The notes under the pieces: generated by a model
What the model was told of the DNA's origin: nothing
The model's database searches: none
The model's input: only the letters and a program-made list of their open reading frames with translations
IMG/VR virus record: IMGVR_UViG_3300047181_000007
Length of the DNA stretch: 64,000 nucleotides
Strand: one strand, 5' to 3'
Source of the DNA: an uncultured virus (IMG/VR IMGVR_UViG_3300047181_000007)
Lineage: Duplodnaviria; Heunggongvirae; Uroviricota; Caudoviricetes
Position numbers and translations under genes: made by a program
Shown here: positions 20,326 to 53,752 of the stretch, piece after piece
How the letters are laid out: each line of letters opens with the position of its first letter
How positions within the stretch are numbered: position 1 is the first letter of the stretch

Positions 20326-21374
20326 CAAAGCCAGTCAATCCACCTGATGTAATCTTTGACCCTGATGATGTAAGCCGTAGGACTGTCAGTTCTATTGAAC
20401 GTATCTCTCAGCAGCAGGACCTAAGTCTTATTGCTGGTATCTCCTCAATAGATGCAGTTCTCAAGCCTCTTATGCCTAACCGCATGACAGGGATACTTGG
20501 CTATACCTCTAATGGCAAGAGTACTCTAGCCAATGCAATTGCCCGACACAACGCTCGTGAACTAATAACCATCAATGCTAATCAGGCAGTAACTAAGCCT
20601 CCACGAGCGGTAGTTACGTTCACATGGGAGCAAACTGTAGAAGAGCAAGGGCTGGATGATATTGCCCATATTATCAAACTGCCTGTTGGTCTACTCTATA
20701 CTGGCAATCTTACAGCTGAGCAATGGATTGTCTTCAAAGATGGTGCCATGAGGCGCAGTTTGCTGCCATGGTGGGTGATTGGTCACTCCTCAGAAGACAA
20801 TAAACGCAGACCAAGAATGAATATGGATGATGTAGCTTTAGTTATGGGATGGTTGGTAGACAAAATGAATATCAATCCAACCCTCGTAGTGCTAGATTAC
20901 TTACAACGAATCAATAGGGATAAGGAGCTATCACAGGCTACTATGCGTGAGTCTTTTATCGAGATAGTTGATCGAGCTAAAGACATGACCCACTCCTTTC
21001 ACTGCCATACAATTCTGGTAAGCCAAGCTAAGCGAGAAGTGAACAATGGAAAGTGGTGCCTACCACAGCTGGAAGACTCACAGGAAACTAGTAACTTCGA
21101 GCAAACTTGTGATGCTATTCTAAGCACATGGCTACCCAAGAACACCTTTCCACTTACTGCTGATGGCAATGACCCACTCAAGGTCAATGGTATAGACTTT
21201 GATGTAGATGAGAACCTGATGATAGTTGGTATAATCAAACAGAAGAAAGGAATATGTCCAGTTACTATACCATTGCATGTAGATTGGGATACCTATACAA
21301 TTTCTGCAATCCAAACAACCAACCTTGATATAGCCACAGGCAAAATGCCACACGGAAGGATAGGAAGAAGGTGA
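20322..21374 (+). CDS. DnaB-like SF4 replicative helicase (C-terminal domain)
   Basis: GYTSNGKST, TWEQ, VLDYLQRI, LVSQAKR, EQTCD, IKQKKG. Confidence 0.9.
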   Translation: MTKPVNPPDVIFDPDDVSRRTVSSIERISQQQDLSLIAGISSIDAVLKPLMPNRMTGILGYTSNGKSTLANAIARHNARELITINANQAVTKPPRAVVTFTWEQTVEEQGLDDIAHIIKLPVGLLYTGNLTAEQWIVFKDGAMRRSLLPWWVIGHSSEDNKRRPRMNMDDVALVMGWLVDKMNINPTLVVLDYLQRINRDKELSQATMRESFIEIVDRAKDMTHSFHCHTILVSQAKREVNNGKWCLPQLEDSQETSNFEQTCDAILSTWLPKNTFPLTADGNDPLKVNGIDFDVDENLMIVGIIKQKKGICPVTIPLHVDWDTYTISAIQTTNLDIATGKMPHGRIGRR

Positions 21375-21631
21375 GAGATGATATTGGCGCTACGGATTTT
21401 GTGCTTGAATATGATGGCAAAGTGCTCTCATTCTCGCCAGTCGCCACACAACAGTATGACAACTGTACTATTGAGGCTGGCAAAGTAGAGGGACACGATG
21501 ACGATAATGTCTACATACGCATCACGAAAGATGGCAAAGACCTGGCTTTCAATTTGCTAAAACAGGATGAGGGCTTAGCAGTAATTTGGGTATTGGCTTG
21601 CACTCTAAACAATATGGAGAATGAGAAATGA
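21371..21631 (+). CDS. Hypothetical protein
   Basis: 86-aa coupled ORF. Confidence 0.55.
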   Translation: MRDDIGATDFVLEYDGKVLSFSPVATQQYDNCTIEAGKVEGHDDDNVYIRITKDGKDLAFNLLKQDEGLAVIWVLACTLNNMENEK

Positions 21632-22143
21632 ATGAGACACTAAAGATTGTGGAATATTTAGCAGCGGAAGGCGCACCATTTAATAACAGTAGAGCCGAGA
21701 CAATTGGGAAATATCTCAAGGACCTCTATGACGAAATGGGAAAACTCACTCCGCAGATTTTAGTTGACCACGCAATAGGTTCACCCGTTGAAGACATCTT
21801 CGATTGGAATAATATCAAGGCTGGCAATAGCTGGAGATTAGAACAAGCTAGACAAATCATCAACCATGTTCTAATAGTTATCCAAAATGGAGATGAAACA
21901 GTAACTAGAGCATTCCATAGTATTATAGTGGATGTCGTGAGTATCGAAGACCCTAACACTCTAAACAAGACAAGGATTTACAAGCCAACAATAGAGATAC
22001 TACAAAATCCCACAGAAACAAAATTGTTATTAGCCGATATTATCAAAATGTTAGTCAATATTGCAGATCGGTATCAGGTTTATGAGGAGCTGGCTCCTGT
22101 CTTCAAAGCAATCAACAAAGTAAGAAATAAGTATGGGATATAA
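21628..22143 (+). CDS. Conserved phage protein next to the pentamer array (putative accessory of the RAMP-like system)
   Basis: AE.IG..L......G.LTP..LVD.A...P...FDW....A...WRLEQARQII...RAF pattern; stop codon abuts the array. Confidence 0.75.
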   Translation: MNETLKIVEYLAAEGAPFNNSRAETIGKYLKDLYDEMGKLTPQILVDHAIGSPVEDIFDWNNIKAGNSWRLEQARQIINHVLIVIQNGDETVTRAFHSIIVDVVSIEDPNTLNKTRIYKPTIEILQNPTETKLLLADIIKMLVNIADRYQVYEELAPVFKAINKVRNKYGI

Positions 22144-22145
22144 CA

Positions 22146-22555
22146 TGCCAACCTGCTTCGGCTTATGTCACCGTGTATCATAGTGAGACACTTCTATCAA
22201 ATCTTATACAACCAAATCGTATCTATACTCTTCTGTTCTTGACGATTCAGGTCCCTTCGCAGCATCTCATCTCCCATCAAATGCAACCATATTGCATCAG
22301 TTCTCTACTTGGCACTTCCTAACCCCTTATTTCTCATCCTATGCAACCACTTCACGGCGACTTTTGTTCTTTCTTCTTCTTTCGATGCCTCACAATGCTA
22401 GGCAAATCGGATTGTATCTCTTCAAATTATATGCAACCCCATCATTTCACTGCTTGCCTTGCTACCTTCAATCGTATCTATTCCGATCACGTGCAACCAC
22501 GTTACTTCCGATCTGCGCTTACTCAATCTAGTCTGATTCCTTCTTTTCAAAACTA
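22146..22555 (+). ncRNA. 5-nt-periodic (NNY-NN)n array in about 6 units separated by RTRCAACC; candidate guide-RNA array
   Basis: From 22211 to 22550, 64 of 68 in-phase pentamers have a pyrimidine at position 3 (52 C); the 4 exceptions are the ATGCA/GTGCA separators; separators at 22206, 22281, 22341, 22431, 22491 (spacings 75, 60, 90, 60). Confidence 0.8.
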
Positions 22556-22578
22556 ACTATAAAATGGAGAAAATGAAA

Positions 22579-23223
22579 ATGGCAACCAAGAAAGTAACAA
22601 CGATAGACGAACCTGCGCCTATAGTAGTAAAGATTGTTAGAGTTCCATACAATCAAGCTACATTGCACATTGTAGGTACAAGACCTCTTCTGGTAGATCG
22701 TATGCCATATATACCAATAGATGGAAAGCTACCCAAGATGTCTGAAGAACAGAAATACCAAGCCTCATTTTATTGGATACCACCAGAAAATGGGGATGAA
22801 CCAAGACAGGGTTTTCCAGGCAAATCTATAAAGTCTGCTTGTATCAATGCTGCTAGATTTATACCTGGATTGCACATGACTACTGTGCGGGGATTGTTCT
22901 TTGTTGATGAAGGAAGAGAAGGACTTCTAGAAATCAAATGTCCTGGTGGTAAAATACTAACTCCAGTAAAAGATTGTCAGATGGTGCATAAACATGATGG
23001 CACTAGCATTGCTTCTGTTCGTGTTCGCTATGACGAATGGGGCTTCAACTTCAATGTTCGTTGGCAACCCACTATGACAAATCTTGATGCTATAATGTCC
23101 TTAGTAGATATTGCTGGCGAGAACATTGGTCTTGGATGTCGTAGACCTGAGAAGTCAGGGCAACAAGAATATGGCACATTCAAACTTATAGATACTCCAG
23201 TTGAGCAGTACTCAGGAGCCTAA
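22579..23223 (+). CDS. Stand-alone Cas7/RAMP-like protein (Vipr-like)
   Basis: L.I.GTRPLL, FPGKSIKSAC..AA, RY..W...F.V, AG..IGLG..RPEKSG..YG.F (RAMP Gly-rich loop); in-frame starts 22564/22573/22579. Confidence 0.75.
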   Translation: MATKKVTTIDEPAPIVVKIVRVPYNQATLHIVGTRPLLVDRMPYIPIDGKLPKMSEEQKYQASFYWIPPENGDEPRQGFPGKSIKSACINAARFIPGLHMTTVRGLFFVDEGREGLLEIKCPGGKILTPVKDCQMVHKHDGTSIASVRVRYDEWGFNFNVRWQPTMTNLDAIMSLVDIAGENIGLGCRRPEKSGQQEYGTFKLIDTPVEQYSGA

Positions 23224-23502
23224 ATGATCTTAGAATCTCTGGATGTTGAATATAAGGAAAAGGGCAGCAAGCACGTCTATCTTGTGGTCATTGGCAAAGA
23301 AGAAAGTGAACAATTTGTGGAAGTTATCGGTGTATCTGCTGTTAGCGAAGAAGATTGTCTTAGACAATGTGGGGGCAAGAGAAAGGTTTTCAAGATTACA
23401 CCTCTCTTTCACATGCTAGAAAGTCTTGAGATGGAAAGTGCACTGGAAGATATGGCACCATTTACGGGATACGGAGGAAAGAATGAAGCTGGACTCCATT
23501 GA
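23224..23502 (+). CDS. Hypothetical protein
   Basis: 92-aa ORF immediately after the RAMP-like gene. Confidence 0.55.
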   Translation: MILESLDVEYKEKGSKHVYLVVIGKEESEQFVEVIGVSAVSEEDCLRQCGGKRKVFKITPLFHMLESLEMESALEDMAPFTGYGGKNEAGLH

Positions 23503-23743
23503 TGATATTGTACTAAAAGGAATATGGGAGGGGAAGAGCATCCTTGAAATCTGTAAGAACGCTGATCGTGCTCCTGCTGCTATACACTATAGGCTCAAAG
23601 AGCTTGAAAGAAATGGTTATATCACACCACCGCCTAAACCAAACATGGCTCGCAGCAGGAAGGTAACACAATCAGGAGAGAACTACTTGGTTGGTAATGG
23701 GCTGATACCTATGACTGATAGAATATTCTCTAATCCAAGGTGA
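23483..23743 (+). CDS. Winged-HTH transcription regulator (LexA/ArsR-like)
   Basis: SILEIC......AAIHYRLKELERNGYI......ARSRKVT; GGAGG RBS. Confidence 0.8.
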   Translation: MKLDSIDDIVLKGIWEGKSILEICKNADRAPAAIHYRLKELERNGYITPPPKPNMARSRKVTQSGENYLVGNGLIPMTDRIFSNPR

Positions 23744-23747
23744 TAAA

Positions 23748-24173
23748 ATGGTCAATGAAATGCATGATTTAGATGTAGAAATATCAGCGATTACAGTAAA
23801 TTTGAAGGCTGAGCATCACAAGGCTCTCGCTAGTGGCAGTGAATGGAATTTGTGTGCCTCGGATAAGCAGCTATTTGGATTGAATGGATTGCTACGTCAG
23901 GGCATGAAGGATACTGATAGAAGAACACGCCTCAGTATCCTAAAGATAATCACAGGGCAAGCCGTGGCTGATTGTCTTGGTATCAGAGAGATAGTTTCGT
24001 CACGTAACCTGTCCGCTCCTATGATTAGTGTACTCATTAATCTACTTCGAGAACCAGAAAGCTCGCCTTGGAGGTTATCAGATTATGGACGGTGGCTCAT
24101 TAGCGCAACAGAGGCGAAAGCTGAAATTCTCCTTGGTCAGCTCCAGCTCCCAAGTATGCCCGATATGCGGTAA
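23748..24173 (+). CDS. Hypothetical protein
   Basis: 141-aa ORF. Confidence 0.6.
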   Translation: MVNEMHDLDVEISAITVNLKAEHHKALASGSEWNLCASDKQLFGLNGLLRQGMKDTDRRTRLSILKIITGQAVADCLGIREIVSSRNLSAPMISVLINLLREPESSPWRLSDYGRWLISATEAKAEILLGQLQLPSMPDMR

Positions 24174-24495
24174 GCGTATTCATACCAAAGATGTAGTCGG
24201 TTTGGATATGCACGAGGTATTTATTACCAGAGGCGATGTAGCAGGGAACGAGGAGTTGATGTCAAAGATTATGCAGCCTTGGAACTGTGTACTAGTACAC
24301 CATGGTGTCTGCCACGAGAGAGCTGCCACTACTGAAGGGCAGACATTCTGTATAAGGTATCTACTCAAGAAGGTGGGCTTCATTACCATAATGCAAGAGC
24401 TAGCGGACCTAGACGAAGCAATGAAGGGGCGCCAAGCCAGGGATGCAATGCGCCTTGCAAGTGACATTTACAGTGAGGAAAGAGAAAATGGCTAG
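24085..24495 (+). CDS. HNH-like zinc-binding protein
   Basis: CPICG...DMHE...NCVLVH..CH; GGAGG RBS at 24070. Confidence 0.6.
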   Translation: MDGGSLAQQRRKLKFSLVSSSSQVCPICGKRIHTKDVVGLDMHEVFITRGDVAGNEELMSKIMQPWNCVLVHHGVCHERAATTEGQTFCIRYLLKKVGFITIMQELADLDEAMKGRQARDAMRLASDIYSEERENG

Positions 24496-24691
24496 AATCC
24501 ATAAACCTAAAATGGAGATACATCTAAGGGAAACAATAGATGGTCTAGTACCTACTGAGTTTATTATCGAAGGTGTGAGCGTACCATGCACTAAAATTCA
24601 CATGAATCTTGCTGCCAACGATCCTGGCGAAATGGTACTTTACATCAGTATGTATCGTATAGACATTATAATCGAAAAGGGGTATGAATAA
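24488..24691 (+). CDS. Hypothetical protein
   Basis: MARIHKPK... short ORF. Confidence 0.5.
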   Translation: MARIHKPKMEIHLRETIDGLVPTEFIIEGVSVPCTKIHMNLAANDPGEMVLYISMYRIDIIIEKGYE

Positions 24692-24710
24692 AGTAACATG
24701 ACAGCAATAG

Positions 24711-24836
24711 AGCCTAGCAGGATGTACCTTACCGTAAAGACAGTATGCCTAGATAGTATACTGTGGTCATCCCGATTGGGATAATTTGGATGGCTAAATG
24801 CTAAGAATGTCAGCACGTGCTGAGACTGCTAAGGCT
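24711..24836 (+). ncRNA. Candidate structured ncRNA (multi-stem junction)
   Basis: Closing stem AGCCTAGCAG/CTGCT(A)AGGCT; internal stems 24740-48/24756-64 and 24765-72/24788-95; palindrome 24810-23; no ORF of 60 aa or more. Confidence 0.5.
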
Positions 24837-24849
24837 TGGAATAAGCAAT

Positions 24850-25005
24850 GGTTGGATGGCGTTGTGGTAGGGACACAAAGGGAAATCAGTCGGGGTCGTT
24901 GGGCAATGCCCTCGTTATTACCTATCCCCTTCCCGTGTGGCACTGACTGTAATCGGGACATCAGGTGACTTCACAGTTACTGCGTCAAATCCTGACCACC
25001 CAACC
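24850..25005 (+). ncRNA. Candidate tRNA-like structured RNA with insertions
   Basis: Terminal stem GGTTGGATGG/CCACCCAACC, D-loop-like TGGTA, T-arm-like TCAGG...TCAAATCCTGA, long internal hairpin 24873-24938. Confidence 0.5.
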
Positions 25006-25040
25006 TACATATTCCATCTAATAGAAATGGAGAGTGAGAA

Positions 25041-25328
25041 ATGAGCGATGAATTGAAATCAACTGAACCCCTCAATAATTATAGGTTAGTTGATGGTCAT
25101 ATCTACGTTAGGATTGGCTCGGATTGGGACGAGATTTATAAAGAGCGCGATGCTCTCCGCAATCAGTTGGAGATTGCGGTGGAGGCAATAAAAGATGCTT
25201 CTGCAAGAGCAAATGGTTTACGAGATAATCCCAATATACCACCCCCAATGTATCAACTAATAAATCTTATGGCAGATAAACTCAATGATGCCCTTGCCGA
25301 AATCGAGAAGATTGGAGAAAAGAAATGA
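25041..25328 (+). CDS. Hypothetical coiled-coil protein
   Basis: ERDALRNQLEIAVEAI...DALAEIE. Confidence 0.65.
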   Translation: MSDELKSTEPLNNYRLVDGHIYVRIGSDWDEIYKERDALRNQLEIAVEAIKDASARANGLRDNPNIPPPMYQLINLMADKLNDALAEIEKIGEKK

Positions 25329-25888
25329 GTGAGACATGGATTACTAGCGATCAACATTTTCACCATGCCAATATCATCGAGTATTGCCATAGACCGTATC
25401 AAAATGCTACCGAGATGGACAATGACCTCATAGTCCAATGGAACAAGAGAGTGTATCCCGATGATACTGTGTATCATCTTGGAGACTTGACACTCAAGAA
25501 CTCTATAGCAGATGTCATCTTCCAACTGAACGGGAATATTCGTATTCTAAGTACACCCTGGCACCATGACAGGAACTGGCTGAAGACCCTAGCCACAAAA
25601 CAGCTAGTCGAGTTTGGGAAGATTGAGTTACTGGATAGTATTGTGGTTCTCGATGACAAGATCAAGTATTCTGTGCCTATCATTTTGTGCCACTATGCCT
25701 TTGAAATATGGGATAGAAAACACTACGACTCGATTCACTTCCACGGTCATTCTCATGGAGAGTTGCACCGTATCCATAATAGACTAGATGTTGGTGTAGA
25801 TATGGCGTATAAACTGCTAGGCTACTACAGTCCATTCTCGCTACACGAAGCTATCTCACTAGCAAATGGATATTACGAAGGAGATTGA
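25325..25888 (+). CDS. Calcineurin-like metallophosphoesterase
   Basis: TSDQHFHH, YHLGD, HHD, LCHY, HFHGHSH, DVGVD. Confidence 0.92.
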   Translation: MSETWITSDQHFHHANIIEYCHRPYQNATEMDNDLIVQWNKRVYPDDTVYHLGDLTLKNSIADVIFQLNGNIRILSTPWHHDRNWLKTLATKQLVEFGKIELLDSIVVLDDKIKYSVPIILCHYAFEIWDRKHYDSIHFHGHSHGELHRIHNRLDVGVDMAYKLLGYYSPFSLHEAISLANGYYEGD

Positions 25889-25889
25889 C

Positions 25890-26456
25890 ATGGATTTTAT
25901 TCCAGAACAGTCCAGTGAAAGTAAACAAGTTCCCTATTATGAACAGGCGACCTCAGCTGAAGGCTGGCAGGGGCAGTCTACCCAAAAGACTCTCACAGCC
26001 CTGCGTTCTGAGATTACACAGTCGATCAGTCGGCTTGGAGGATTAGTGATGGGCTTCCAAAGAGGCACATTCCAAGGTACAGAAGAAGAACGGGAAGGCT
26101 TCCGCATTCATTATACTGTTGAGGCTTCCGATGGTCGGCAAGTACCTGGACGCATTGACATTGCTGCTCTACCTATCGACCCCACAATCAACTGGAATCG
26201 TGCAGACAAATCCAAGCACAAAGAATCATCGCTCAAGATGGCTCTCTATATGCTTAGAGTAGCCTTGGATGGCACATGGTTCTTACAGCAGCTCAGTCCT
26301 GGTTATGCAGCTCTTGTGCCTTTTATGTTGGGTCCAGGTAAGAAAACGATCTCTGAACTATGGACTGAGAGCTCTATTATGAACAACCTTCTACCTCCAG
26401 GTGATGATGGAGACTTTATTGAAGGAGAGATAATCAATAACAAGGAGAATAAATGA
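25890..26456 (+). CDS. Hypothetical protein
   Basis: ORF with GGAG RBS; S...I...LG, LVPFML..G.T..E. Confidence 0.7.
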   Translation: MDFIPEQSSESKQVPYYEQATSAEGWQGQSTQKTLTALRSEITQSISRLGGLVMGFQRGTFQGTEEEREGFRIHYTVEASDGRQVPGRIDIAALPIDPTINWNRADKSKHKESSLKMALYMLRVALDGTWFLQQLSPGYAALVPFMLGPGKKTISELWTESSIMNNLLPPGDDGDFIEGEIINNKENK

Positions 26457-27439
26457 AACTAATCTATTTTATACTAGTAGTATTTCTTGTTGCTTTAGCC
26501 CTTGTCGCAGTGGGAACAAGGAAAGCAAGCGCAGATGATATAAACTGCCCGACAGACACTCCAACCAGCACGCCGATCACTCCAACCCCTACCGATACAC
26601 CAGTGCCCCCTTCCCCTACACCAACTGACACGGAGATTCCAAGTGCAACGCCAACTGATACTCCAACGGAAATACCAACGCTTACAGCAACGCCGACTAG
26701 CACATCAACGGACGTTCCTACAGATACACCAACGCAGACTCCTACAGATACAGCAACAGATACTCCAGAGGCAACTCCAACGTTTACTACAACTGCTAGT
26801 CCCACAGATACGCCAGCTAATACACCAACTAGCACACCCATCACAAACACCCCAACCATAACACAGACTAAAGACCCACGTACTGAGACACCCACCATCA
26901 CTCCTAGTGATACCCCTGTTACTCCGACAGATACACCTACTCCAGTTTATACACCTTCTACGACTTCTACACCGACACGACCTTCTGCGACAGAGACACC
27001 TTATCCACCTCAACCAGCTATAGCCGCTATGCACAACCTTCCGTATCCGAGTTCGCAAATAGGTGTGATGAGCCTAAGTAACTATGAATATCAGCTTTAT
27101 CTAGGCGTGAATGCTCCTGATGGTTCCCTAATGCTCCCCAATATTGAGCGCAGTGCAGCTGTCTATCAAAACACAATATGGGTACACCGTATTTGGGAAG
27201 ATGACTGGCTTAGGGTTCGAGCTGGAGATACCATAACTATTACCATGCCTAACGACAAAGCACATACCTACAAGGTTGTCAATAGCATATATATTGCCTA
27301 TGGTGTATACCCTGAAGCAGACCGCAGAGGCAGTCCTTACCAGTATATCGCATCTTGTTATTCAGACTCTCAGGGTTGGAAAGGTGTGATATTATATCAA
27401 TTACAACCAATTAGAAATTCTCGTTCACATGCAAAATAA
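26453..27439 (+). CDS. Secreted or membrane-anchored protein: signal/TM, Pro/Thr-rich linker, sortase-like C-terminal domain
   Basis: Hydrophobic N-terminus, (TPTDTP)n, then WVHR...AGDTITI...YKVV...YIASCY. Confidence 0.65.
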   Translation: MKLIYFILVVFLVALALVAVGTRKASADDINCPTDTPTSTPITPTPTDTPVPPSPTPTDTEIPSATPTDTPTEIPTLTATPTSTSTDVPTDTPTQTPTDTATDTPEATPTFTTTASPTDTPANTPTSTPITNTPTITQTKDPRTETPTITPSDTPVTPTDTPTPVYTPSTTSTPTRPSATETPYPPQPAIAAMHNLPYPSSQIGVMSLSNYEYQLYLGVNAPDGSLMLPNIERSAAVYQNTIWVHRIWEDDWLRVRAGDTITITMPNDKAHTYKVVNSIYIAYGVYPEADRRGSPYQYIASCYSDSQGWKGVILYQLQPIRNSRSHAK

Positions 27440-28902: not shown

Positions 28903-29916
28903 GCTGGCAATTGAAGAGGACATCACTAAGAGAATAAAAGCCTTCAAAGAAGAGACAGGCTGTGATATTAGTGATATATCTATTAGTATGCGCCGCTACA
29001 AAGAGTTCGGATGGAAAGGCGCACTGAATATTGTGCAGAATGTCACAGTTGAGTTGACATACAAGGAGCTAACAATACGATGACAGCCGCAGCCGCCAAG
29101 AAAGAACGTCTTACCATGTACAGTTTGCAAGACAAGTTGGTCAAGCATGGCTTCCAACTTGTTGAGCCAGGAGATGTAACTACCTTTGCTCAACGTGGCA
29201 AGACTGTAGTGTGTGTGTTTACAGACGAAAAGAACAAGAGCTTCTGGACATCCATGTACTGGCACACCATGAATGCAGATAAGAGGCTAAAGAGTTTCAT
29301 TAGTAGTATCACTAAGTCTGGTATTGACTTCACCAGCGGTGGTAAGATAATCCCACGGACCCTTGAGCCAGATTACAAGTTCTTAGGGTATCCCATAGCC
29401 ACTACAGTGATTGCGTTCTTTAGAAATCAGGGAGGTTAGTTATGAAAATGATAAATCTGCTTAGAGAAGTAGTCCTAGCCTATGATGAATTTATGTTATC
29501 AGATATGGACACACATATCACTAATCCTAGCTGGCTAAGACTAACAGAGGCTATACACCGAGTAAGAATATACTTTCGGGAACAACGAAACGAGATTGTT
29601 GCTGGAGGAAAACGCAATGGATAGTGACGGTTATCCAACCGAGGATCTGTTAGAAGAAATCCGTAAGTGGGATGCCACGGACTTCATAGGGCTGATGACT
29701 TATATCAAGCCACTATGGAAGTACGCTAACTCTGGCTACTGGTCTGTTCGTGGACACTACTATCACCTATCTACTGCTGGATGGAGTGGCAATGAAAGTA
29801 TAATTGGTGCCATGCAAAACAACCATATCTGGTGGGCACTGTATGCCTGGTCATGGCGTGTGGGTGGTCACTATGTATTCAGATACCGAAAGATAAAGAA
29901 GGCAACCAATGGGTGA
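28853..29916 (+). other. Four hypothetical CDS (28853-29083, 29080-29439, 29442-29624, 29617-29916)
   Basis: Coupled ORFs; the last has the phage-type motif STAGWSGNE.II. Confidence 0.6.
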
Positions 29917-30676
29917 GAAATCTGGAATAGCCTGGACGGATGCAACCTTCAATCCTTGGTGGGGCTGCACAAAACTTAGTGAAGCCTGTGCTCATTGCTA
30001 TGCTGAGCGTGACTCTAAGCGCTTTGGTGGTGACTATTGGGGCAAAGATGCACCCCGTAGATTCTTTGGCAAACACCATTGGGACCAAGTATATGATTGG
30101 GACAATAAAGCAAGAAAGACTGGCTGTCTTACACGTGTGTTTTCTGGCTCCATGTGCGACATCTTTGAGGATAGACCAGACCTCAAGGAACCACGTATGC
30201 AGTTATGGGAACTGATCGAGCGTACCGAAAATCTAATATGGCTTCTACTTACCAAGCGACCAGAGAACATTATCAATATGATACCTTTCGATTGGAAATG
30301 GCACGCTATACCTATTCATGTATGGTTTGGTACAACTGTAGAGAACCAGCATCATGTAGATAGACTGATAGATATAGCTGCACTGAAAACCTGGACGGAT
30401 AATATATTTGTATCCGTTGAGCCTATGCTTGGTCAGGTAGACTTTGGTGAGTGGTGGTATGTTCCTAAATGGGTAATCGTGGGTGGCGAGTCTGGAACTG
30501 GTGCCAGAGAGATGAAACGTGGATGGATAGAGCATCTCAAGCGTATATGTAGAGAGAAGGAAATCCCATTCTTTCTGAAACAGCTTGGTGGCTTTCCAGA
30601 TCGGCGCTGCGATATGTCTAAATGGGATGCAGACCTAAGAATACAAGAACTTCCTAAAGAAATGATTGGAGGCTAG
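29909..30676 (+). CDS. DUF5131 (phage Gp37/Gp68) protein
   Basis: IAWTDATFNPWWGCTKLS.AC.HCYAE, SMCDIF, LLTKRP, SVEPML, WVIVGGESG, FFLKQLGG. Confidence 0.93.
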   Translation: MGEKSGIAWTDATFNPWWGCTKLSEACAHCYAERDSKRFGGDYWGKDAPRRFFGKHHWDQVYDWDNKARKTGCLTRVFSGSMCDIFEDRPDLKEPRMQLWELIERTENLIWLLLTKRPENIINMIPFDWKWHAIPIHVWFGTTVENQHHVDRLIDIAALKTWTDNIFVSVEPMLGQVDFGEWWYVPKWVIVGGESGTGAREMKRGWIEHLKRICREKEIPFFLKQLGGFPDRRCDMSKWDADLRIQELPKEMIGG

Positions 30677-38188: not shown

Positions 38189-38685
38189 TATGTATCCCAA
38201 AAGTCAATACCGTTTACCTCACCAACTTCAATTCCATTGTGAAGCACTTTGAATGAAAGTGTCACAAGAGAAGCATCACGAGGTGGATCGCCACCATTAT
38301 CATCAGTGGCATGTACCATGAGTCCCTCAAAGTTCAGGTTTGCACGTTGAGTAAGAGGAGAGCCTTCATCCTGAATAATATGCCCACCACCTGTAGCATC
38401 CGACTGTGGATTGATTTTATAGGGTGTAGGGTTACTAGGCATCTGAGTGACTGTGGTGGTAGTCTGTTGTGAATTAGCAAGGACAGTGGGTGGGACAGTA
38501 CTGGTATCTGCACTGACTTGCTGTCCTACTACAACTGGACCGCCTGTTACCCTAAGATTATGGTAGATAGTCCCATTACTTAGCAGACGAATGCTTGCTC
38601 TGCCAAAGAGAACATCAGTGACTGTCGCTGGAATAAGTGCTCCAGTCTTTACGGTCTTACGAATGTCTCTACTAAGCTGGCTCAT
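38188..38685 (-). CDS. Tail tip / spike-like protein
   Basis: OB-like N-terminus; IQDEG..LTQRANLNF.G tail motif. Confidence 0.6.
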   Translation of the reverse strand: MSQLSRDIRKTVKTGALIPATVTDVLFGRASIRLLSNGTIYHNLRVTGGPVVVGQQVSADTSTVPPTVLANSQQTTTTVTQMPSNPTPYKINPQSDATGGGHIIQDEGSPLTQRANLNFEGLMVHATDDNGGDPPRDASLVTLSFKVLHNGIEVGEVNGIDFWDT

Positions 38686-41600
38686 CGTATTCCTCTCTTC
38701 CTTGTATCTGCATTCTAGCTGTCGCCTGAGCTTCAGATGCTCTAAACTCATAAGATACCGCTTCCACAACTATTGAAGCAGTTCTTGCAGATGGTACCTT
38801 ATTTTGGTCATCATAAGAGACAGTATATACATCTCCTGGCTCCAACTCAAGATCAGGTCTAATATCTACACTGTGTTTATGGGCACTTTCTAGCAGTCTC
38901 TTCAGAATAATATGAGCAGCTCTCATTGCTCCTATACCAAGGTCTGGCATACGCATCATCTTGGTAGCAAAGCCTACTACTCTGGCAAAGTTTTCATCCT
39001 GTATAGTCTTTACATCTTTTAGACCATAAATGATAGCATCACTTGCTCCACTAGAAGGAAATACATGACTGTAACTATGTGTCCTTGGTTCTCTTCCAGC
39101 AGTAACAGTAGTTCTTGTTGCGTCATACCAGAAATCTATTGACCCATCAGGCTTAGCAAACATCTCGATAGGTCGTTGCTGAATGACTGAGCTAAGTGCG
39201 CTTGTGCCATCAGTCTCAAGGTCAATATAGATTGCCTCACGCCAGTCGCTTAGATCACTCTCTCTAATATTACTGAGGATAAGTGAGCTCGTGCTAGTGG
39301 ATAATGTAATTATTAGACTGTTCTCGTAGTCAATCTCATTAAGGGCTACAGTAGTTACCCATTGACCATTATGATAGAAACCAATATTGTTTCCCATTGC
39401 CATTACTCTGAACTTCTGAACTCCAGTATTAGTAGAGAACTGGCAACTATATATAACAGTGTTAGATGGTAAACTCACAACACTATAGACAAAATTTCCA
39501 GAACCAGAGTAAGTAATATTCACTCTGATGTCCGTGTCATCCTCAAATAAAGATTTGTTCTCATAGTTGTCTGGCTTTATTTTGGCATTGAAGTCAATTC
39601 GCAGCGTTAGACTTCCAAAACTAGCTACATCGAAGCTCAGGTCAAACCCTTCGGCGTAGTCAGTAGTCTGAATATCCTGCGGAGTAGTAGTAACTGTTAG
39701 ATTAGTACCACCATGGGTATAGTCACTTGGGAACTGGCATTGTGCGCCCGATAGATCGCATATCTTTTGAACCATGTCTCCAATTGTAGTGTCGTCTTCT
39801 CCACCTGTACCCTGATACCAGTAACAAAATATTTCACCAGCACGTTCATATACAGCAAACTCACCTTCACTATGAGTAGCCTTCTCGCCAGATATGAGTT
39901 TTATTGGAAGTGTAGGGTCAGAAGCAAAATCGCCAAGCAAGCCACCTGTAACCCACACCTTGTTGGAAAGAGAGTGATAGAGTTTTCCTATTAGCACATC
40001 GGCTGAATAAATTCTACAACGATTACGAAGCCAAACAGTCGAGCCACCAGTAGTAATGAAGATTTGCCAGTCTATTCGATTAACTATGAAGTTTACTCCA
40101 CTACTAATAGTAACTATATAACCATCGTATGAGTACTCATCTGCTAGCCAGTCAAAATCTCGGCAATCAAGAGCATACCCATCCCCATAGCCTAAATCAA
40201 CATCATACCAACCCATACAGCGAAATTGATATGGACCTATAGAGTAGCTAGGATGAGCAACCTTGGTATAGTATTGGTATACATTGTCTTCCAGTCTAAT
40301 TGTTCCATTAGATGGAAAGTTTGCTGTACTCCATAATGGGTCAAATGGGATACCCTGACCAGATACGTCTTCTTCATCACCGAGTTCCTGGTATCCAAGA
40401 GTACGTGCCAGCGGAGCTTCAATAAAACCATAGATGCCACAACGCATTGAGGCTATATCGCTTGTGTACATATACCCATTAGCTTCTTCCCAATCATAGT
40501 CAAGGACTTTCTCAAAGCAACCACTAGATACACGAACCATATATAACTCGAAGTGCCCGTCCTTGTGATCGAAACGCATTTGCAAGGTATCATCAGTATC
40601 AATAACAGTGAAAGATACAAGAGCATCATCTAAAATCTGCTCAATCCCATCTCTACAAATAACTATCTGTGCATATCCAGTACGCTTGTCATATCTCCCT
40701 ACTGTGTAGTTTAGTCCATCTTCACAATGACCAACTAGACCAGTAAAAGCTCCATAGTTTGCTAAGTCTTCTACGTCATTCTTGAACCTTGCAGCTAGTG
40801 AGAAGTTGAAGGCATTATATGGACCCGTGGCAATCATAATGAATGGCTTACCAGCTTTAGGGAGCTTATAGTAACCCCAATCTTTCTCGGTTTCCCAAGG
40901 AGTATCAGCACCATAGAGAGGATAGAAGGCTCTTACTCCAGCAGTGAACTCAACTCGTGCTGGACAAAATCTTGTATCATCAGCAGAGTAGAATGAAAGC
41001 CCTACTTTCTTTATCTTCCAGCCCACCTCAAACCCATAATAGGCAGCTGTAAAATCAAACTCTACGGGGTCAGTGCCAGCAACATTGTCAAAGTAGGTTT
41101 GCTTCCAGTGTTGAGCACCAGTTGCTACATAGTCGTGGTCAACTCCTTCATCATCTGTGACTTGTATCATTATATGGATATGGTCGTTGCTATCACCTGT
41201 GTTAGGGCAGGATGACCAACCATAAGCCTTAGCATGTATGGTTGTATCTGTAATCACTGGATTATCATTCAGGGCTAGCTTGTATTGGATTTCTTCACGC
41301 ATGATAATGCCGAACCAGTGATTGGGAGTCGGCGCATCAGGCTCATAATAATTTACACCACCTTGCAAGTTCAGGTCTACAGGGGTGATACCTAGTCCAG
41401 TATTTGTATAGCCCTCATGGTCCCAAAAGTCTACTTGGAAGCTATTGGCTGCAATACAACCATTACCTACAGCAGACAGCATGGATGTGTCCATCTGCAT
41501 TGGGTCAAAACAGGCAGACTTGCCGAGGATCTCCGCATAGAATGGCATGGATAAACCAGTGAGATTCCATAAAGCCTCGTTAGTAGCAGTAAGAGTCATT

Positions 41601-42922
41601 CCCCGTCTATCTACTCCAATATCGTAGTTAATGCTATCAATAATATAGGTTGCATATTTCACATATTCGATTGCAGATGCAGTCTGTAAACCAGCATACA
41701 TTACCAGGCGGGCACCTTCAATCACCTGTGGAATGTTCTCTGGAAAATACTGTTCCAAGCCAGATCGCAGAGATAGATTGCATCTACTTAGGTCACTATC
41801 TGAATATGATTTGATGTTGTTCTCATTGATATTTACTACCACTCCAGTGCCATCAGCACCATCAAATACCCAAGTTATAGGAGCATAGCAGACACGGTTG
41901 CAGTTGCCTAGGTAGAGATTGTTACCACCTGTTCTAGCCAAGAAACGGTATCCAATATTACTTACCATCGTGTTTCGATTGACACTAAATGTTTTCCCGT
42001 TTTGAGAGAACAGCAAAAGCGAATACGGCTCAGCGCCTTCTAGATTATCCGTCCTATTGAATAGACCACAAATGTAGATCGTGTCATTATGGGTATAGGC
42101 GTTAGCAATTCTGAACTCACATAGAGACACTTGAAGGTCCGTGGGTAGAACAGTGAAAACATTACTCCATGTATCTGTATCAATATCGTAGTAAACACCT
42201 TCTACCATGCCAGATCGAGCGTTGCTCATATAGACGAACACTTTATTGTCTAATCTAGCAGCTCCAGAATGGATTGCTTTCTGTAGCATAGTCCGTGTAT
42301 CGTCTGTCTTGCCCTCTCTTATTTCTTCTTCAGTCTTGGGAGTAGGTTCAATAGCACAATGGAACATAAAACGGCTGGTACACTCACTCTTTGAAGAGTC
42401 ACTCATATACACTGGTCTGAAGCCACCCTCATCCTCCATTATCCCAATTGCTTCTGTAGGACTAATAGCATGAACAGCGTCTACAGGACAAGAAGGTGTG
42501 ATATACACACTATTGTAGGAGACTGATGTGCCACTTAGGGCAATCGAATATCGTCTTATATCTGAACCCACATAAGCATACAGTTTAGTACCTAATACTC
42601 CTGGCTTTACTGAAGTAGCATCAGCTCCACTAAGAACAGAACCTCCACTTGTACCCTGAACGGCATAATACAGTGTACTTCCAGAAACATAATAGGTTAC
42701 TAGACCACCTTGATTAACAAAGTATTCTATATCCTGTCTTACAGGGTCAATTACAATACCCTTAGCGTCTGGACTGTCTATAGGATGATTCTCTGTAGGA
42801 GTACCCTCAAAGTAAATCCGTGATGGATAGATTTCAGCCTTGATATGTGGATAAAAGCTACCATCAAGGTCGATGGCATTTCTTATTGTAGTGGTGAATC
42901 CATCTTCAGATGTTCTAGCCAT
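38672..42922 (-). CDS. Large minor tail (hub/tip) protein
   Basis: 1416 aa, two genes after the tape measure; C-terminal PDLELEPGD hub-type motif. Confidence 0.7.
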   Translation of the reverse strand: MARTSEDGFTTTIRNAIDLDGSFYPHIKAEIYPSRIYFEGTPTENHPIDSPDAKGIVIDPVRQDIEYFVNQGGLVTYYVSGSTLYYAVQGTSGGSVLSGADATSVKPGVLGTKLYAYVGSDIRRYSIALSGTSVSYNSVYITPSCPVDAVHAISPTEAIGIMEDEGGFRPVYMSDSSKSECTSRFMFHCAIEPTPKTEEEIREGKTDDTRTMLQKAIHSGAARLDNKVFVYMSNARSGMVEGVYYDIDTDTWSNVFTVLPTDLQVSLCEFRIANAYTHNDTIYICGLFNRTDNLEGAEPYSLLLFSQNGKTFSVNRNTMVSNIGYRFLARTGGNNLYLGNCNRVCYAPITWVFDGADGTGVVVNINENNIKSYSDSDLSRCNLSLRSGLEQYFPENIPQVIEGARLVMYAGLQTASAIEYVKYATYIIDSINYDIGVDRRGMTLTATNEALWNLTGLSMPFYAEILGKSACFDPMQMDTSMLSAVGNGCIAANSFQVDFWDHEGYTNTGLGITPVDLNLQGGVNYYEPDAPTPNHWFGIIMREEIQYKLALNDNPVITDTTIHAKAYGWSSCPNTGDSNDHIHIMIQVTDDEGVDHDYVATGAQHWKQTYFDNVAGTDPVEFDFTAAYYGFEVGWKIKKVGLSFYSADDTRFCPARVEFTAGVRAFYPLYGADTPWETEKDWGYYKLPKAGKPFIMIATGPYNAFNFSLAARFKNDVEDLANYGAFTGLVGHCEDGLNYTVGRYDKRTGYAQIVICRDGIEQILDDALVSFTVIDTDDTLQMRFDHKDGHFELYMVRVSSGCFEKVLDYDWEEANGYMYTSDIASMRCGIYGFIEAPLARTLGYQELGDEEDVSGQGIPFDPLWSTANFPSNGTIRLEDNVYQYYTKVAHPSYSIGPYQFRCMGWYDVDLGYGDGYALDCRDFDWLADEYSYDGYIVTISSGVNFIVNRIDWQIFITTGGSTVWLRNRCRIYSADVLIGKLYHSLSNKVWVTGGLLGDFASDPTLPIKLISGEKATHSEGEFAVYERAGEIFCYWYQGTGGEDDTTIGDMVQKICDLSGAQCQFPSDYTHGGTNLTVTTTPQDIQTTDYAEGFDLSFDVASFGSLTLRIDFNAKIKPDNYENKSLFEDDTDIRVNITYSGSGNFVYSVVSLPSNTVIYSCQFSTNTGVQKFRVMAMGNNIGFYHNGQWVTTVALNEIDYENSLIITLSTSTSSLILSNIRESDLSDWREAIYIDLETDGTSALSSVIQQRPIEMFAKPDGSIDFWYDATRTTVTAGREPRTHSYSHVFPSSGASDAIIYGLKDVKTIQDENFARVVGFATKMMRMPDLGIGAMRAAHIILKRLLESAHKHSVDIRPDLELEPGDVYTVSYDDQNKVPSARTASIVVEAVSYEFRASEAQATARMQIQGREEYDEPA

Positions 42923-43342
42923 TTAGTTCTTCTCCACAAATGCTACAGGGATTAGGTAGTAGGCAGATACCCCATCAAGGACAGTACATAATGGTTGCAT
43001 GGTTGCCTCTCCAGTGAAGTAAACATCGTGAGTTGCTCCAAAGTGATCGGTTAGACGGATAACGTCTGTTGGTGTGCCAAAAGCATTGGAGTAAGCAAAG
43101 AATGTATCAAAGTCTGCACTATTTCCCCACGCAGTGGTACTACCAGTGGTACCAATTGGCATAAACAAGGTGTACTTCCATGACTTTATGACAGGACCCG
43201 CTTGCTTATCTGTCTTACCGCCAATAGTTAGCTCGACACTATCCATACGCTGAAGTGTTGGAGCCATTTCAACCGTCTTGAATTGTTTCTCATAGGTTGT
43301 GCTAAGGCGACTATCGTTTAGTTTGATGTAGTTGACTGCCAT
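42923..43342 (-). CDS. Distal tail (Dit)-like protein
   Basis: Directly after the TMP; 139 aa; paralogous domain at 62273-62686. Confidence 0.6.
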   Translation of the reverse strand: MAVNYIKLNDSRLSTTYEKQFKTVEMAPTLQRMDSVELTIGGKTDKQAGPVIKSWKYTLFMPIGTTGSTTAWGNSADFDTFFAYSNAFGTPTDVIRLTDHFGATHDVYFTGEATMQPLCTVLDGVSAYYLIPVAFVEKN

Positions 43343-53460: not shown

Positions 53461-53752
53461 TGTTCTGTCCTTGCTGTCCTTCTTGTGCGTCAGCAGCAGC
53501 ATTTATAATAGAATAAAGTTCTTCTACTTCAGTGACGACACCAACTTCTAGAAGCCAGATGTGAGGTTGTTCTAGCACACCACCCGCAACTAAAGGTATG
53601 CCGAGTTTCTTGCACTTCTTCCACAGCTTTAGAGCTTCAGGCATTTCGGGAGGTTCTTTCCGAAGTCCTACCTTTAGCTCATTCAGCCCTCCGTAGTATT
53701 CTTGGAGAGCTACACGTAGTTCATTTAGTTTCCCCTCTACAACGCTTCCCCC
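53423..53752 (-). CDS. Tail assembly chaperone extension (gpGT-like), reached by -1 frameshift
   Basis: Lies in the -1 frame of the upstream gene; GGGGGAA slippery site at 53746-53752. Confidence 0.7.
   Translation of the reverse strand, partial: GGSVVEGKLNELRVALQEYYGGLNELKVGLRKEPPEMPEALKLWKKCKKLGIPLVAGGVLEQPHIWLLEVGVVTEVEELYSIINAAADAQEGQQGQNNETRPRLDSGIR

What the first reader, a model, noticed from the sequence alone, without database searches (positions are those of the whole stretch)
22579..23223. Stand-alone Cas7/RAMP-like protein in a phage replication operon with no CRISPR or other cas genes
Seen: an N-terminal beta strand ending in GTRPLL, FPGKSIKSAC (like the RAMP iPgssiKGa helix), and a C-terminal Gly-rich loop AG..IGLG..RPEKSG..YG.F. 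Knowledge: these are RAMP superfamily hallmarks. No Cas1/2/3/6/8/10 or CRISPR repeat is visible in the window. Inference: it is the effector for the adjacent pentamer array, probably for repression of competing phages or for self-regulation, since no nuclease is fused.
Basis: partly seen in the sequence, partly recalled or inferred. Interest (0 to 1): 0.8.

Follow-up and report, generated by a model that had tools for sequence, protein, structure and literature searches.

The report
Phage VIPR guide-RNA system, unusual anchor
This freshwater-sediment phage carries a VIPR system, a CRISPR-related RNA-guided DNA silencer first described in 2026: a lone Cas7-like protein beside an array of five-base guide units, which here use different fixed letters and lie on the opposite strand.

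Summary

The 415-nt spacer just upstream (22146-22560) is a period-5 array. One base recurs in 57 of 84 pentamers, against at most 42 elsewhere in the window.

The upstream gene (21628-22143) is a conserved accessory gene. It lies next to vipr in 4 other loci and is fused to it in a fifth. No CRISPR array or cas gene is present.

Three things are unusual:
- **Anchor.** It is not GGY. In five good units, position 1 is a purine in 59 of 59 pentamers, position 2 is A in 43 of 59, and only 1 of 59 begins GG.
- **Strand.** The purine anchors lie on the strand opposite vipr. Nine clear comparison loci all have G anchors on the vipr strand.
- **Contact residues.** Three of the four SUSP1 residues that hold G1/G2 differ here.

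The transcribed strand, expression and targets are unproven. Other agents of this scan found VIPR loci in other genomes.

Verdict: a real system of a known kind, in a variant guide format.

The parts
22579..23223 (+). vipr gene: Cas7-like RAMP protein. It is 214 aa from the ATG at 22579; the longest ORF starts at 22564 and gives 219 aa.
   Evidence: ORF listed. phrog_4652 hit, matched by 101 of 101 family members. Profile hit to PDB 36pp_D 'SUSP1 Vipr protein', E 1.4e-15. AF2 pLDDT 93.9. Csm3/Cas7 fold. SD GGAG at 22566-22569.
22146..22560 (-). Period-5 array, the putative vrRNA array. The minus strand reads R-A-W-N-N pentamers and the plus strand reads N-N-W-T-Y. It fills the whole spacer between the accessory gene and vipr. 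The strand of the RNA is not proven; minus is favoured.
   Evidence: C at one phase in 57 of 84 pentamers. The maximum in 420-nt windows elsewhere is 42 (mean 30.9, sd 2.65). The maximum in 2000 shuffles is 45. Register and composition. No Rfam family. No significant fold on either strand.
22489..22548 (-). Unit v1: 10 pentamers followed by GGTTGCACGT.
   Evidence: G1 in 7/10, purine in 10/10.
22429..22488 (-). Unit v2: 10 pentamers followed by GGTTGCATAT.
   Evidence: G1 in 8/10, purine in 10/10.
22339..22428 (-). Unit v3: 16 pentamers followed by GGTTGCATAG.
   Evidence: G1 in 11/16, purine in 16/16.
22279..22338 (-). Unit v4: 10 pentamers followed by GGTTGCATTT.
   Evidence: G1 in 8/10, purine in 10/10.
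22204..22278 (-). Unit v5: 13 pentamers followed by GGTTGTATAA. This is the best-kept unit.
   Evidence: G1 in 13/13, GA in 10/13.
22144..22203 (-). Unit v6: a degenerate unit followed by GGTTGGCATG. It abuts the stop codon of the accessory gene.
   Evidence: G1 in only 2/10. A weak hairpin lies at 22162-22147 on the minus strand.
22556..22585 (-). Sigma-70-like promoter candidate, TTGCCA-18 nt-TATAGT, firing leftward into the array. Its -35 lies in a seventh, one-base-longer copy of the unit motif that overlaps the vipr start codon.
   Evidence: Best site in 21500-24000, 10 of 12 matches. It is one of only 6 minus-strand sites with >=10/12 in 64 kb. This is a consensus match only, and the host is unknown.
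21628..22143 (+). Conserved vipr-accessory (vap-like) gene, 171 aa, phrog_15946.

Best explanation
The locus 21628-23223 is a VIPR (Viral Interference Programmable Repeat) system of an uncultured tailed phage. It has three parts: a Vipr protein (a minimal Cas7-like RAMP), a conserved accessory gene, and between them a 415-nt array of six guide units of 60-90 nt written in five-base steps.

By analogy with the SUSP1 system, I infer the following mechanism:
1. The array is transcribed and cut into vrRNAs.
2. One Vipr protomer binds each pentamer, so the protein forms a helical filament on the RNA.
3. The fixed (anchor) bases are buried in the protein.
4. The variable bases of successive pentamers are presented for gapped pairing with double-stranded DNA.
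5. The complex sits on a gene of a competing mobile element and blocks its transcription. No nuclease is present.

The specific reading for this copy is that the array is inverted relative to vipr and transcribed from its own promoter on the minus strand. Its anchor is purine-A (mostly GA, followed by A or T) rather than GGY. Each unit ends in one canonical GGTTG pentamer plus CAT, which would mark the unit boundary or a loading or processing site.

What is shown here: family membership, fold, period-5 array, conserved accessory gene, phage context, absence of CRISPR/cas.

What is inferred: transcription, strand, processing, filament formation, pairing rule, targets and biological role.
For: **Protein.**
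- A profile of 101 homologues hits PDB 36pp_D 'SUSP1 Vipr protein' at E 1.4e-15 over profile positions 22-200.
- All 101 of 101 members match phrog_4652.
- The AF2 model has pLDDT 93.9.

**Array.**
- One base recurs at one phase in 57 of 84 pentamers. The maximum elsewhere in the window is 42, and the maximum in 2000 shuffles is 45.
- The whole array keeps a single register, with unit lengths of 60, 60, 90, 60, 75 and 60 nt.
- In units v1-v5, position 1 is a purine in 59 of 59 pentamers (G 47, A 12), and position 2 is A in 43 of 59.

**Relatives carry arrays beside vipr.**
- SUSP1 has YNNGG runs.
- Three actinophages have them.
- Metagenome loci L011 and L007 have them.
- IMG/VR loci L061, L065 and L067 have G at 18-20 of 20 steps.
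- L007 contains GACGA pentamers among its GGC ones, so GA anchors do occur in a canonical array.

**Accessory gene.** It is conserved next to vipr in 4 other loci and fused to it in a fifth.

**Minus-strand reading.**
- Every published repeat variant keeps a G (YNNGG, NNNGG, YNNNG, NNNNG; Methods section read).
- The only canonical GGY pentamer, GGTTG, is on the minus strand and recurs at each unit end.
- The best promoter-like site in the region lies at the array's right edge and points into it.

**Context.** The window is a phage. It has a Sak4-like protein, a DnaB-like helicase, a major head protein, a scaffold protein and an endolysin.

**Published mechanism.** Results, Methods sections 18 and 20 and searched passages of 10.64898/2026.04.26.720920, and section 5 of 10.64898/2026.04.26.720927.
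Against: - There is no strict YNNGG run of 4 or more units on either strand of the window. Only 1 of 59 pentamers in v1-v5 begins GG.
- In all 9 comparison loci with a clear array, the G-periodic strand is the vipr strand. Here it is the opposite strand. A minus-strand RNA would therefore be antisense to a 33-kb block of plus-strand genes.
- Three of the four SUSP1 residues reported to hold G1 and G2 are not kept: H17 is D45 here, D177 is C192, and W178 is R193. Only R138 is kept, as R153 (with residue roles from the paper section read).
- A single-sequence search of PDB sequences found nothing. The link to SUSP1 needs the profile.
- The promoter is a consensus match. There were 4 sites at >=9/12 against 6.8 expected in the region, and the host's promoter type is unknown.
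- No close relative with DNA could be found, so conservation of anchors against variability of guide positions could not be tested.
Confidence: 0.85

Rival explanations
1. Same VIPR system, but the guide RNA is the plus strand. It would be co-transcribed with the accessory gene and vipr, as in every comparison locus. The anchors would then be pyrimidines: W-U-C/U followed by two variable bases. This Vipr clade would have re-specified its anchor pocket from GGY to a pyrimidine motif.
For: - All 9 clear comparison loci have the array on the vipr strand.
- The array fills an intergenic spacer inside a plus-strand operon, and no terminator is predicted after the upstream gene. Plus-strand RNA of the array should therefore exist anyway.
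- Both SUSP1 residues that read G1 (H17, D177), and W178 that stacks on G2, are replaced in this clade. This is seen in the window and in P0002, P0003 and P0004.
Against: - All repeat variants named in the Methods section I read keep a G.
- The conserved GGTTG is a canonical GGYNN only on the minus strand.
- GA anchors occur inside a normal G-strand array in L007.
- An Asp (D45) replaces H17, so an acidic G-reading side chain may still be near position 1. This is inference.
- A promoter-like site points into the array on the minus strand.
Confidence: 0.3
2. The array is a decaying or inactive remnant. vipr is intact, but the guides no longer load, which would explain the weak anchors and the absence of GG.
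For: - The anchor G is present in only 47 of 59 pentamers in v1-v5, and in 2 of 10 in v6.
- No target was found in the window.
- No structured tail was found on either strand; z-scores were -1.06 and -0.19.
Against: - Position 1 is a purine in 59 of 59 pentamers, and one register is kept over about 400 nt with unit lengths that are all multiples of 5. Neutral decay with small insertions or deletions would break the register.
- The locus is identical in contigs from four other sequencing runs.
- The published text notes frequent internal degeneracy of functional vrRNAs.
Confidence: 0.1
3. The repeat region is not a guide array. It would be a replication origin or a regulatory region with iterons (ATGCAACCA every 60-90 nt), placed beside the helicase and Sak4 replication genes.
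For: - Five to seven copies of a 9-nt motif occur at 60-90-nt spacing.
- The region lies inside a replication-gene block.
Against: - A strict 5-nt phase over 84 pentamers is not a property of iteron origins (established knowledge, recalled), but it is the defining property of vrRNA arrays.
- The region directly abuts a Vipr gene and its conserved accessory gene.
- The motif spacing of 60, 75 and 90 nt is not a whole number of helical turns.
Confidence: 0.04

Closest known systems
Type II VIPR system of Escherichia phage SUSP1 (Vipr, vrRNA1-4, vap1). Sources: bioRxiv 10.64898/2026.04.26.720920 and 10.64898/2026.04.26.720927; PDB 36pp.
   Same: - Homologous Vipr protein of about 200 aa with an RRM core, thumb and Gly-rich loop.
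- A minimal two-gene locus in a phage.
- Long non-coding flank made of five-base units.
- No CRISPR array or cas genes.
   Different: - The SUSP1 anchor is GGY. SUSP1 has runs of 4-12 perfect YNNGG units on the vipr strand, each followed by a structured tail of about 35 nt (tail described).
- Here the anchor is purine-A, on the opposite strand. Units end in a 8-10-nt motif, and no significant fold was found.
- The accessory genes are unrelated.
- The contact residues H17, D177 and W178 are D, C and R here.
VIPR loci of actinophages (Gordonia phages Ecliptus and UmaThurman, Mycobacterium phage Gorge) and metagenome loci L007 and L011. These are the branch with the same accessory gene.
   Same: - Vipr is 26-32% identical.
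- The same vap-like gene lies next to vipr.
- The arrays are contiguous, without long tails, and are punctuated at roughly 60-nt intervals.
- L007 and L011 share the xRRPE(K/R)SG form of the Gly-rich loop.
   Different: - Their arrays are GGC/GGT (with some GAC) on the vipr strand, and lie downstream of vipr or directly upstream of it.
- They keep His at the H17 position (except L007) and Glu at the D177 position.
- In this window the gene order is accessory gene, array, vipr, with the array's G strand inverted.
CRISPR type III Csm3 / Cas7 backbone subunits.
   Different: - There is no CRISPR array and no Cas10, Cas5, Cas6, Cas1 or Cas2.
- Sequence identity is 8-15%.
- The step is 5 nt with a gapped code, against 6 nt for CRISPR (paper).
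- It is phage-encoded.

Membership tests
VIPR system (Vipr + vrRNA) | Protein homologous to characterised Vipr proteins | tested here: met
   A profile of 101 family members hits PDB 36pp_D 'SUSP1 Vipr protein' at E 1.4e-15, 60.3 bits. The same profile finds the vipr gene in the SUSP1 genome at E 6.9e-18. A single-sequence phmmer search found no hit.
VIPR system (Vipr + vrRNA) | Tandem YNNGG (GGY/NN) repeats of at least 4 units flanking vipr | tested here: not met
   No run of 4 or more YNNGG units on either strand of the 64-kb window. The same script found one 4-unit NNNGG run at 25108-25127, which I take to be chance.
VIPR system (Vipr + vrRNA) | Pentamer-periodic array of a 'related consensus' next to vipr. 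The paper accepts NNNGG, YNNNG and NNNNG. | tested here: met
   Period 5 in 57 of 84 pentamers, about 10 sd above the rest of the window. The anchor is purine-A. This exact consensus is not among those named in the Methods section I read. The figure with the type logos (S17) could not be seen.
VIPR system (Vipr + vrRNA) | Array expressed as roughly 100-nt vrRNAs that co-purify with Vipr | not testable with these tools
   No RNA run lists this DNA. Only metagenome DNA contigs were available.
VIPR system (Vipr + vrRNA) | Vipr-accessory (vap) gene in the locus | tested here: met
   The upstream ORF is homologous to vipr-adjacent ORFs in L007, L011, Ecliptus and UmaThurman. Which of the published vap1-6 it is could not be checked, because the supplement was unreadable. 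It is not vap1 of SUSP1.
VIPR system (Vipr + vrRNA) | Non-CRISPR, mostly viral context | tested here: met
   Phage head, scaffold, endolysin, Sak4 and DnaB-like genes are present. No CRISPR array. None of 58 ORFs hit a Cas model.
VIPR system (Vipr + vrRNA) | SUSP1 residues that read the GG anchor (H17, D177, W178, R138) | tested here: not met
   Only 1 of 4 is kept (R153). The others are D45, C192 and R193. Across 101 family members the two G-loop positions are E/D-W in 36 and C-R in 2. This describes the type II exemplar and is not a family-wide rule.
VIPR system (Vipr + vrRNA) | Guides match targets by the 1-nt skip rule | tested here: inconclusive
   Only the window itself could be searched. 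No unit, register or skip length (0-3) beat permuted controls. Targets are expected in other elements.
CRISPR-Cas class 1 effector (Cas7/Csm3) | Encoded with a CRISPR array and other cas genes (Cas5, Cas6, large subunit) | tested here: not met
   none in 64 kb.

The most novel reading that the evidence does not exclude
This Vipr clade comprises the window and its 44-57% identical relatives. They carry D/N at the H17 position and Cys at the D177 position. The most novel reading is that the clade has re-specified the anchor pocket of the RAMP filament. It would then read a non-GG anchor: purine-A on an antisense-encoded guide or, more radically, a pyrimidine W-U-C anchor on the sense strand. That would show that the fixed part of the VIPR code can evolve, and that the same filament can be built on different repeat alphabets.
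Probability: 0.3. Interest if true: 0.65.

Novelty: new variant of a known kind. Interest (0 to 1): 0.42.

Why it matters
VIPR systems were reported only in 2026, as a phage-borne RNA-guided DNA-silencing system with a gapped code and a proposed ancestor of CRISPR RAMPs. This locus adds a freshwater-sediment phage member with three linked departures from the studied exemplar:
- The anchor is almost never GG.
- The array is inverted relative to vipr.
- Three of the four GG-contacting residues are replaced.

If anchor and pocket co-vary, this natural pair would show how the fixed part of the code is read, and could widen the set of programmable repeat designs. If not, it is simply one more member of a large family with 711 cluster representatives.

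Tried and rejected
**Search for close relatives with DNA, to compare anchor and guide positions. None was found.**
- Protein- and alignment-based scans of IMG/VR found nothing.
- JGI metagenome contigs gave nothing, and GTDB genomes gave nothing.
- A degenerate G-loop DNA pattern gave 0 hits in IMG/VR. In metagenomes it gave 5 loci, of which 3 were true but distant relatives, L007, L010 and L011. In GTDB it gave 10 loci, none of them true.
- An array-motif pattern gave 38 IMG/VR loci, all chance hits.
- tblastn of isolated phages found only actinophages.

**Expression.** No RNA holder is listed for this DNA.

**Population variation.** Contigs from 4 runs laid on 21600-23800 showed no differences, so they gave no information on variability.

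**Self-targeting.** Six units, three registers and skip lengths 0-3 were searched on both strands of the window. The best matches equalled those of permuted guides.

**Collection-wide target search.** This was not run. It would have required typing guide-derived patterns, which are joined and altered sequence, so I left it out. The targets therefore remain open.

**RNA families and structure.**
- Rfam gave nothing relevant in 21000-25500.
- RNA folding of either strand was not better than shuffles.

**Accessory protein.**
- Pfam gave nothing above threshold.
- Foldseek found no match at E <= 0.001.
- The PDB profile hit to TAL-effector repeats (E 5e-10, no single stretch significant) rests on one short LTPxxVV-like motif.

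**Other.**
- The whole genome is not held.
- The supplementary PDF of the VIPR paper could not be read.

Full report
**The gene.** The window's ORF 22564-23223 (+) encodes 219 aa. The likely start is the ATG at 22579, because GGAG lies 9 nt upstream and the nearest homologues begin there.

Pfam gives nothing. PHROGs gives phrog_4652, of unknown function. An exhaustive HMMER search finds 711 cluster representatives at E<=1e-3, almost all about 200 aa. In an alignment of 101 of them, W159, G185, G189, R194 and G204 are invariant, and all 101 match phrog_4652.

**What the protein is.** A profile of that alignment hits one solved structure strongly: 36pp_D, 'SUSP1 Vipr protein', E 1.4e-15. The single sequence alone finds nothing.

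**The literature.** A full-text search found three 2026 bioRxiv preprints on VIPR systems.
- For 10.64898/2026.04.26.720920 I read the abstract, all of Results, Methods sections 18 and 20, and searched passages.
- For 10.64898/2026.04.26.720927 I read the abstract and Results section 5.
- For 10.64898/2026.10.15.759431 I read only the abstract and outline.

They describe a phage-encoded minimal RAMP (Vipr) that polymerises on vrRNAs made of 9-16 YNNGG pentamers plus a 3' tail. The NN bases pair with dsDNA, skipping every third target base, and the complex represses competing mobile elements. There are seven types, with alternative repeats NNNGG, YNNNG and NNNNG, staggered or ribozyme-interspersed arrays, and accessory genes vap1-6. 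The figures and the supplementary PDF could not be read.

**The array.** No strict YNNGG run of 4 or more units exists in the window. However, the 415-nt spacer between the upstream gene and vipr (22146-22560) is strongly five-periodic.
- In one register, C occupies the same pentamer position in 57 of 84 pentamers (59 of 84 in the best 420-nt window).
- All 420-nt windows away from the locus reach at most 42 (mean 30.9, sd 2.65).
- 2000 shuffles of the region reach at most 45.

Read on the minus strand, the pentamers are G-A-(A/T)-N-N. They fall into six units of 10, 10, 16, 10, 13 and 10 pentamers, each followed by GGTTGCAT or a one-base variant. All unit lengths (60, 60, 90, 60, 75, 60 nt) are multiples of five, so the entire array stays in phase.

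In units v1-v5:
- Position 1 is a purine in 59 of 59 pentamers (G 47, A 12).
- Position 2 is A in 43 of 59.
- Only 1 of 59 pentamers begins GG.

Unit v6, next to the upstream gene, is degenerate (G in 2 of 10). Neither strand folds better than shuffled sequence, and no Rfam family matches.

**Comparison loci.** I looked at vipr loci elsewhere.
- SUSP1 (accession recalled, confirmed by the record) has YNNGG runs followed by tails, on the vipr strand.
- Gordonia phages Ecliptus and UmaThurman and Mycobacterium phage Gorge have long GGC/GGT arrays on the vipr strand.
- Two distinct metagenome loci share this window's xRRPE(K/R)SG loop: L011 and L007 (L010 duplicates L007). They have GGC arrays on the vipr strand, and L007 includes GACGA pentamers.
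- In eight IMG/VR loci of a further clade, the best G-period count on the vipr strand exceeds the best C-period count in every case. The pairs are 15/13, 18/11, 14/12, 14/13, 16/13, 20/14, 17/15 and 20/16 of 20. Three of these arrays are clear (at least 18 of 20).

So 9 clear comparison arrays all have G on the vipr strand. This window is the exception.

**Which strand is the guide?** This is not settled.

For the minus strand:
- Every repeat form named in the paper keeps a G.
- GGTTG is a canonical GGYNN pentamer only on that strand.
- GA anchors occur in L007.
- The best sigma-70-like site in 21500-24000 (TTGCCA-18-TATAGT, 10 of 12) lies at 22585-22556 on the minus strand and points into the array. 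It is one of only 6 such minus-strand sites in 64 kb. By my own post-hoc arithmetic, that is about a 0.006 chance of one landing in a 60-nt zone. The host's promoters are unknown.

For the plus strand:
- All comparison loci are co-directional with vipr.
- The array lies inside a plus-strand operon with no predicted terminator before it.

I put the odds at roughly 2:1 for the minus strand.

**Contact residues.** The structural preprint (section 5) names H17 and D177 as reading G1, R138 and W178 as holding G2, and a pocket that excludes purines at Y3. In my alignment these positions are D45, C192, R153 and R193 here.
- The closest relatives P0002, P0003 and P0004 also have D or N at the first position and Cys at the second.
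- Of 101 family members, 36 have E/D-W at the G-loop positions, and only 2 have C-R.
- L011 and L007 have E-R and still use GGC.

The changed residues fit a changed anchor, but with one locus this is a correlation of one.

**The accessory gene.** The upstream ORF 21628-22143 (phrog_15946) is homologous to the ORF next to vipr in L007 (BLASTP E 2e-15). It aligns with the vipr-adjacent ORFs of L011, Ecliptus gp20 and UmaThurman gp41, and its signature also lies inside the long Gorge gp54. It is unrelated to SUSP1 vap1.

**Context and exclusions.**
- The window is a tailed phage, with early and replication genes on the plus strand (Sak4-like, LexA-DBD protein, DnaB-like helicase) and late genes on the minus strand (major head, scaffold, endolysin).
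- There is no CRISPR array, and none of 58 ORFs hit a Cas model.
- The DNA occurs in freshwater-sediment metagenome runs. No RNA run lists it, and contigs of four runs are identical over the locus.
- No guide unit matches the window itself better than permuted guides, so self-regulation has no support.
- Close relatives with DNA could not be found in any collection.

**Earlier notes of this scan.** Other agents have reported VIPR loci in at least 9 other genomes. One of these is an archaeal case whose fixed letter is C on the gene's strand (e1-5485894). I did not check that note. It suggests that this orientation or anchor is not unique.

**Verdict.** The locus is a VIPR system, a kind already in print, so it is not a new class. 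It is a variant in guide format (purine-A anchor, inverted array, altered anchor-contact residues, short unit-end motif). The reality and meaning of that format need RNA data. I could not see the paper's type logos, which may already cover such a consensus.

Noticed in passing
window 22579-22588: The vipr start region ATGGCAACCA is a seventh, one-base-longer copy of the unit motif ATGCAACCA. On the minus strand it supplies the -35 of the promoter-like site. This could mean the array grew by duplicating the gene's 5' end, or that array RNA can pair with the vipr start region.
   Followed up: partly
L002 3137-3460 (Gordonia phage UmaThurman gp40): The annotated 'hypothetical protein' gp40 lies entirely within the GGYNN pentamer array downstream of vipr. 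It is probably a guide array miscalled as a gene.
   Followed up: partly
L003 2336-3553 (Mycobacterium phage Gorge gp54): The annotated 405-aa ORF begins as Vipr, leaves the alignment mid-protein and later contains the accessory-gene signature. tblastn matched it in two pieces. This looks like a frameshifted or fused vipr plus accessory gene.
   Followed up: no
window 21628-22143 (residues about 38-50): The accessory protein family carries a short LTPxxVV..A motif. It gives a summed profile hit to TAL-effector repeats (Hax3, E 5e-10, no single stretch significant).
   Followed up: partly
window 43342-53502 (-) and 38672-42922 (-): Two giant late-region ORFs of 3386 aa and 1416 aa have no PHROG match at E<=1e-5. 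They are presumably virion or tail proteins of an unusual phage lineage.
   Followed up: no
window 26453-27439 (+): A 328-aa protein has an N-terminal hydrophobic segment and about 200 residues of Pro/Thr/Asp-rich PTDTPT-type repeats, followed by a globular C-terminal part. It has no family match.
   Followed up: no
window 23224-23743 (+): Directly after vipr (the stop codon abuts the next ATG) lie a 92-aa ORF with no match and an 86-aa winged-helix protein (HTH_24, E 4.6e-5). The latter also matches the HTH end of a PADLOC CARF model. Whether they belong to the system is unknown.
   Followed up: partly
window 29909-30676 (+): A DUF5131 protein (Pfam E 2.3e-56) also matches the PADLOC candidate-defence models PDC-M41B and PDC-M30B (E about 1e-43).
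   Followed up: no
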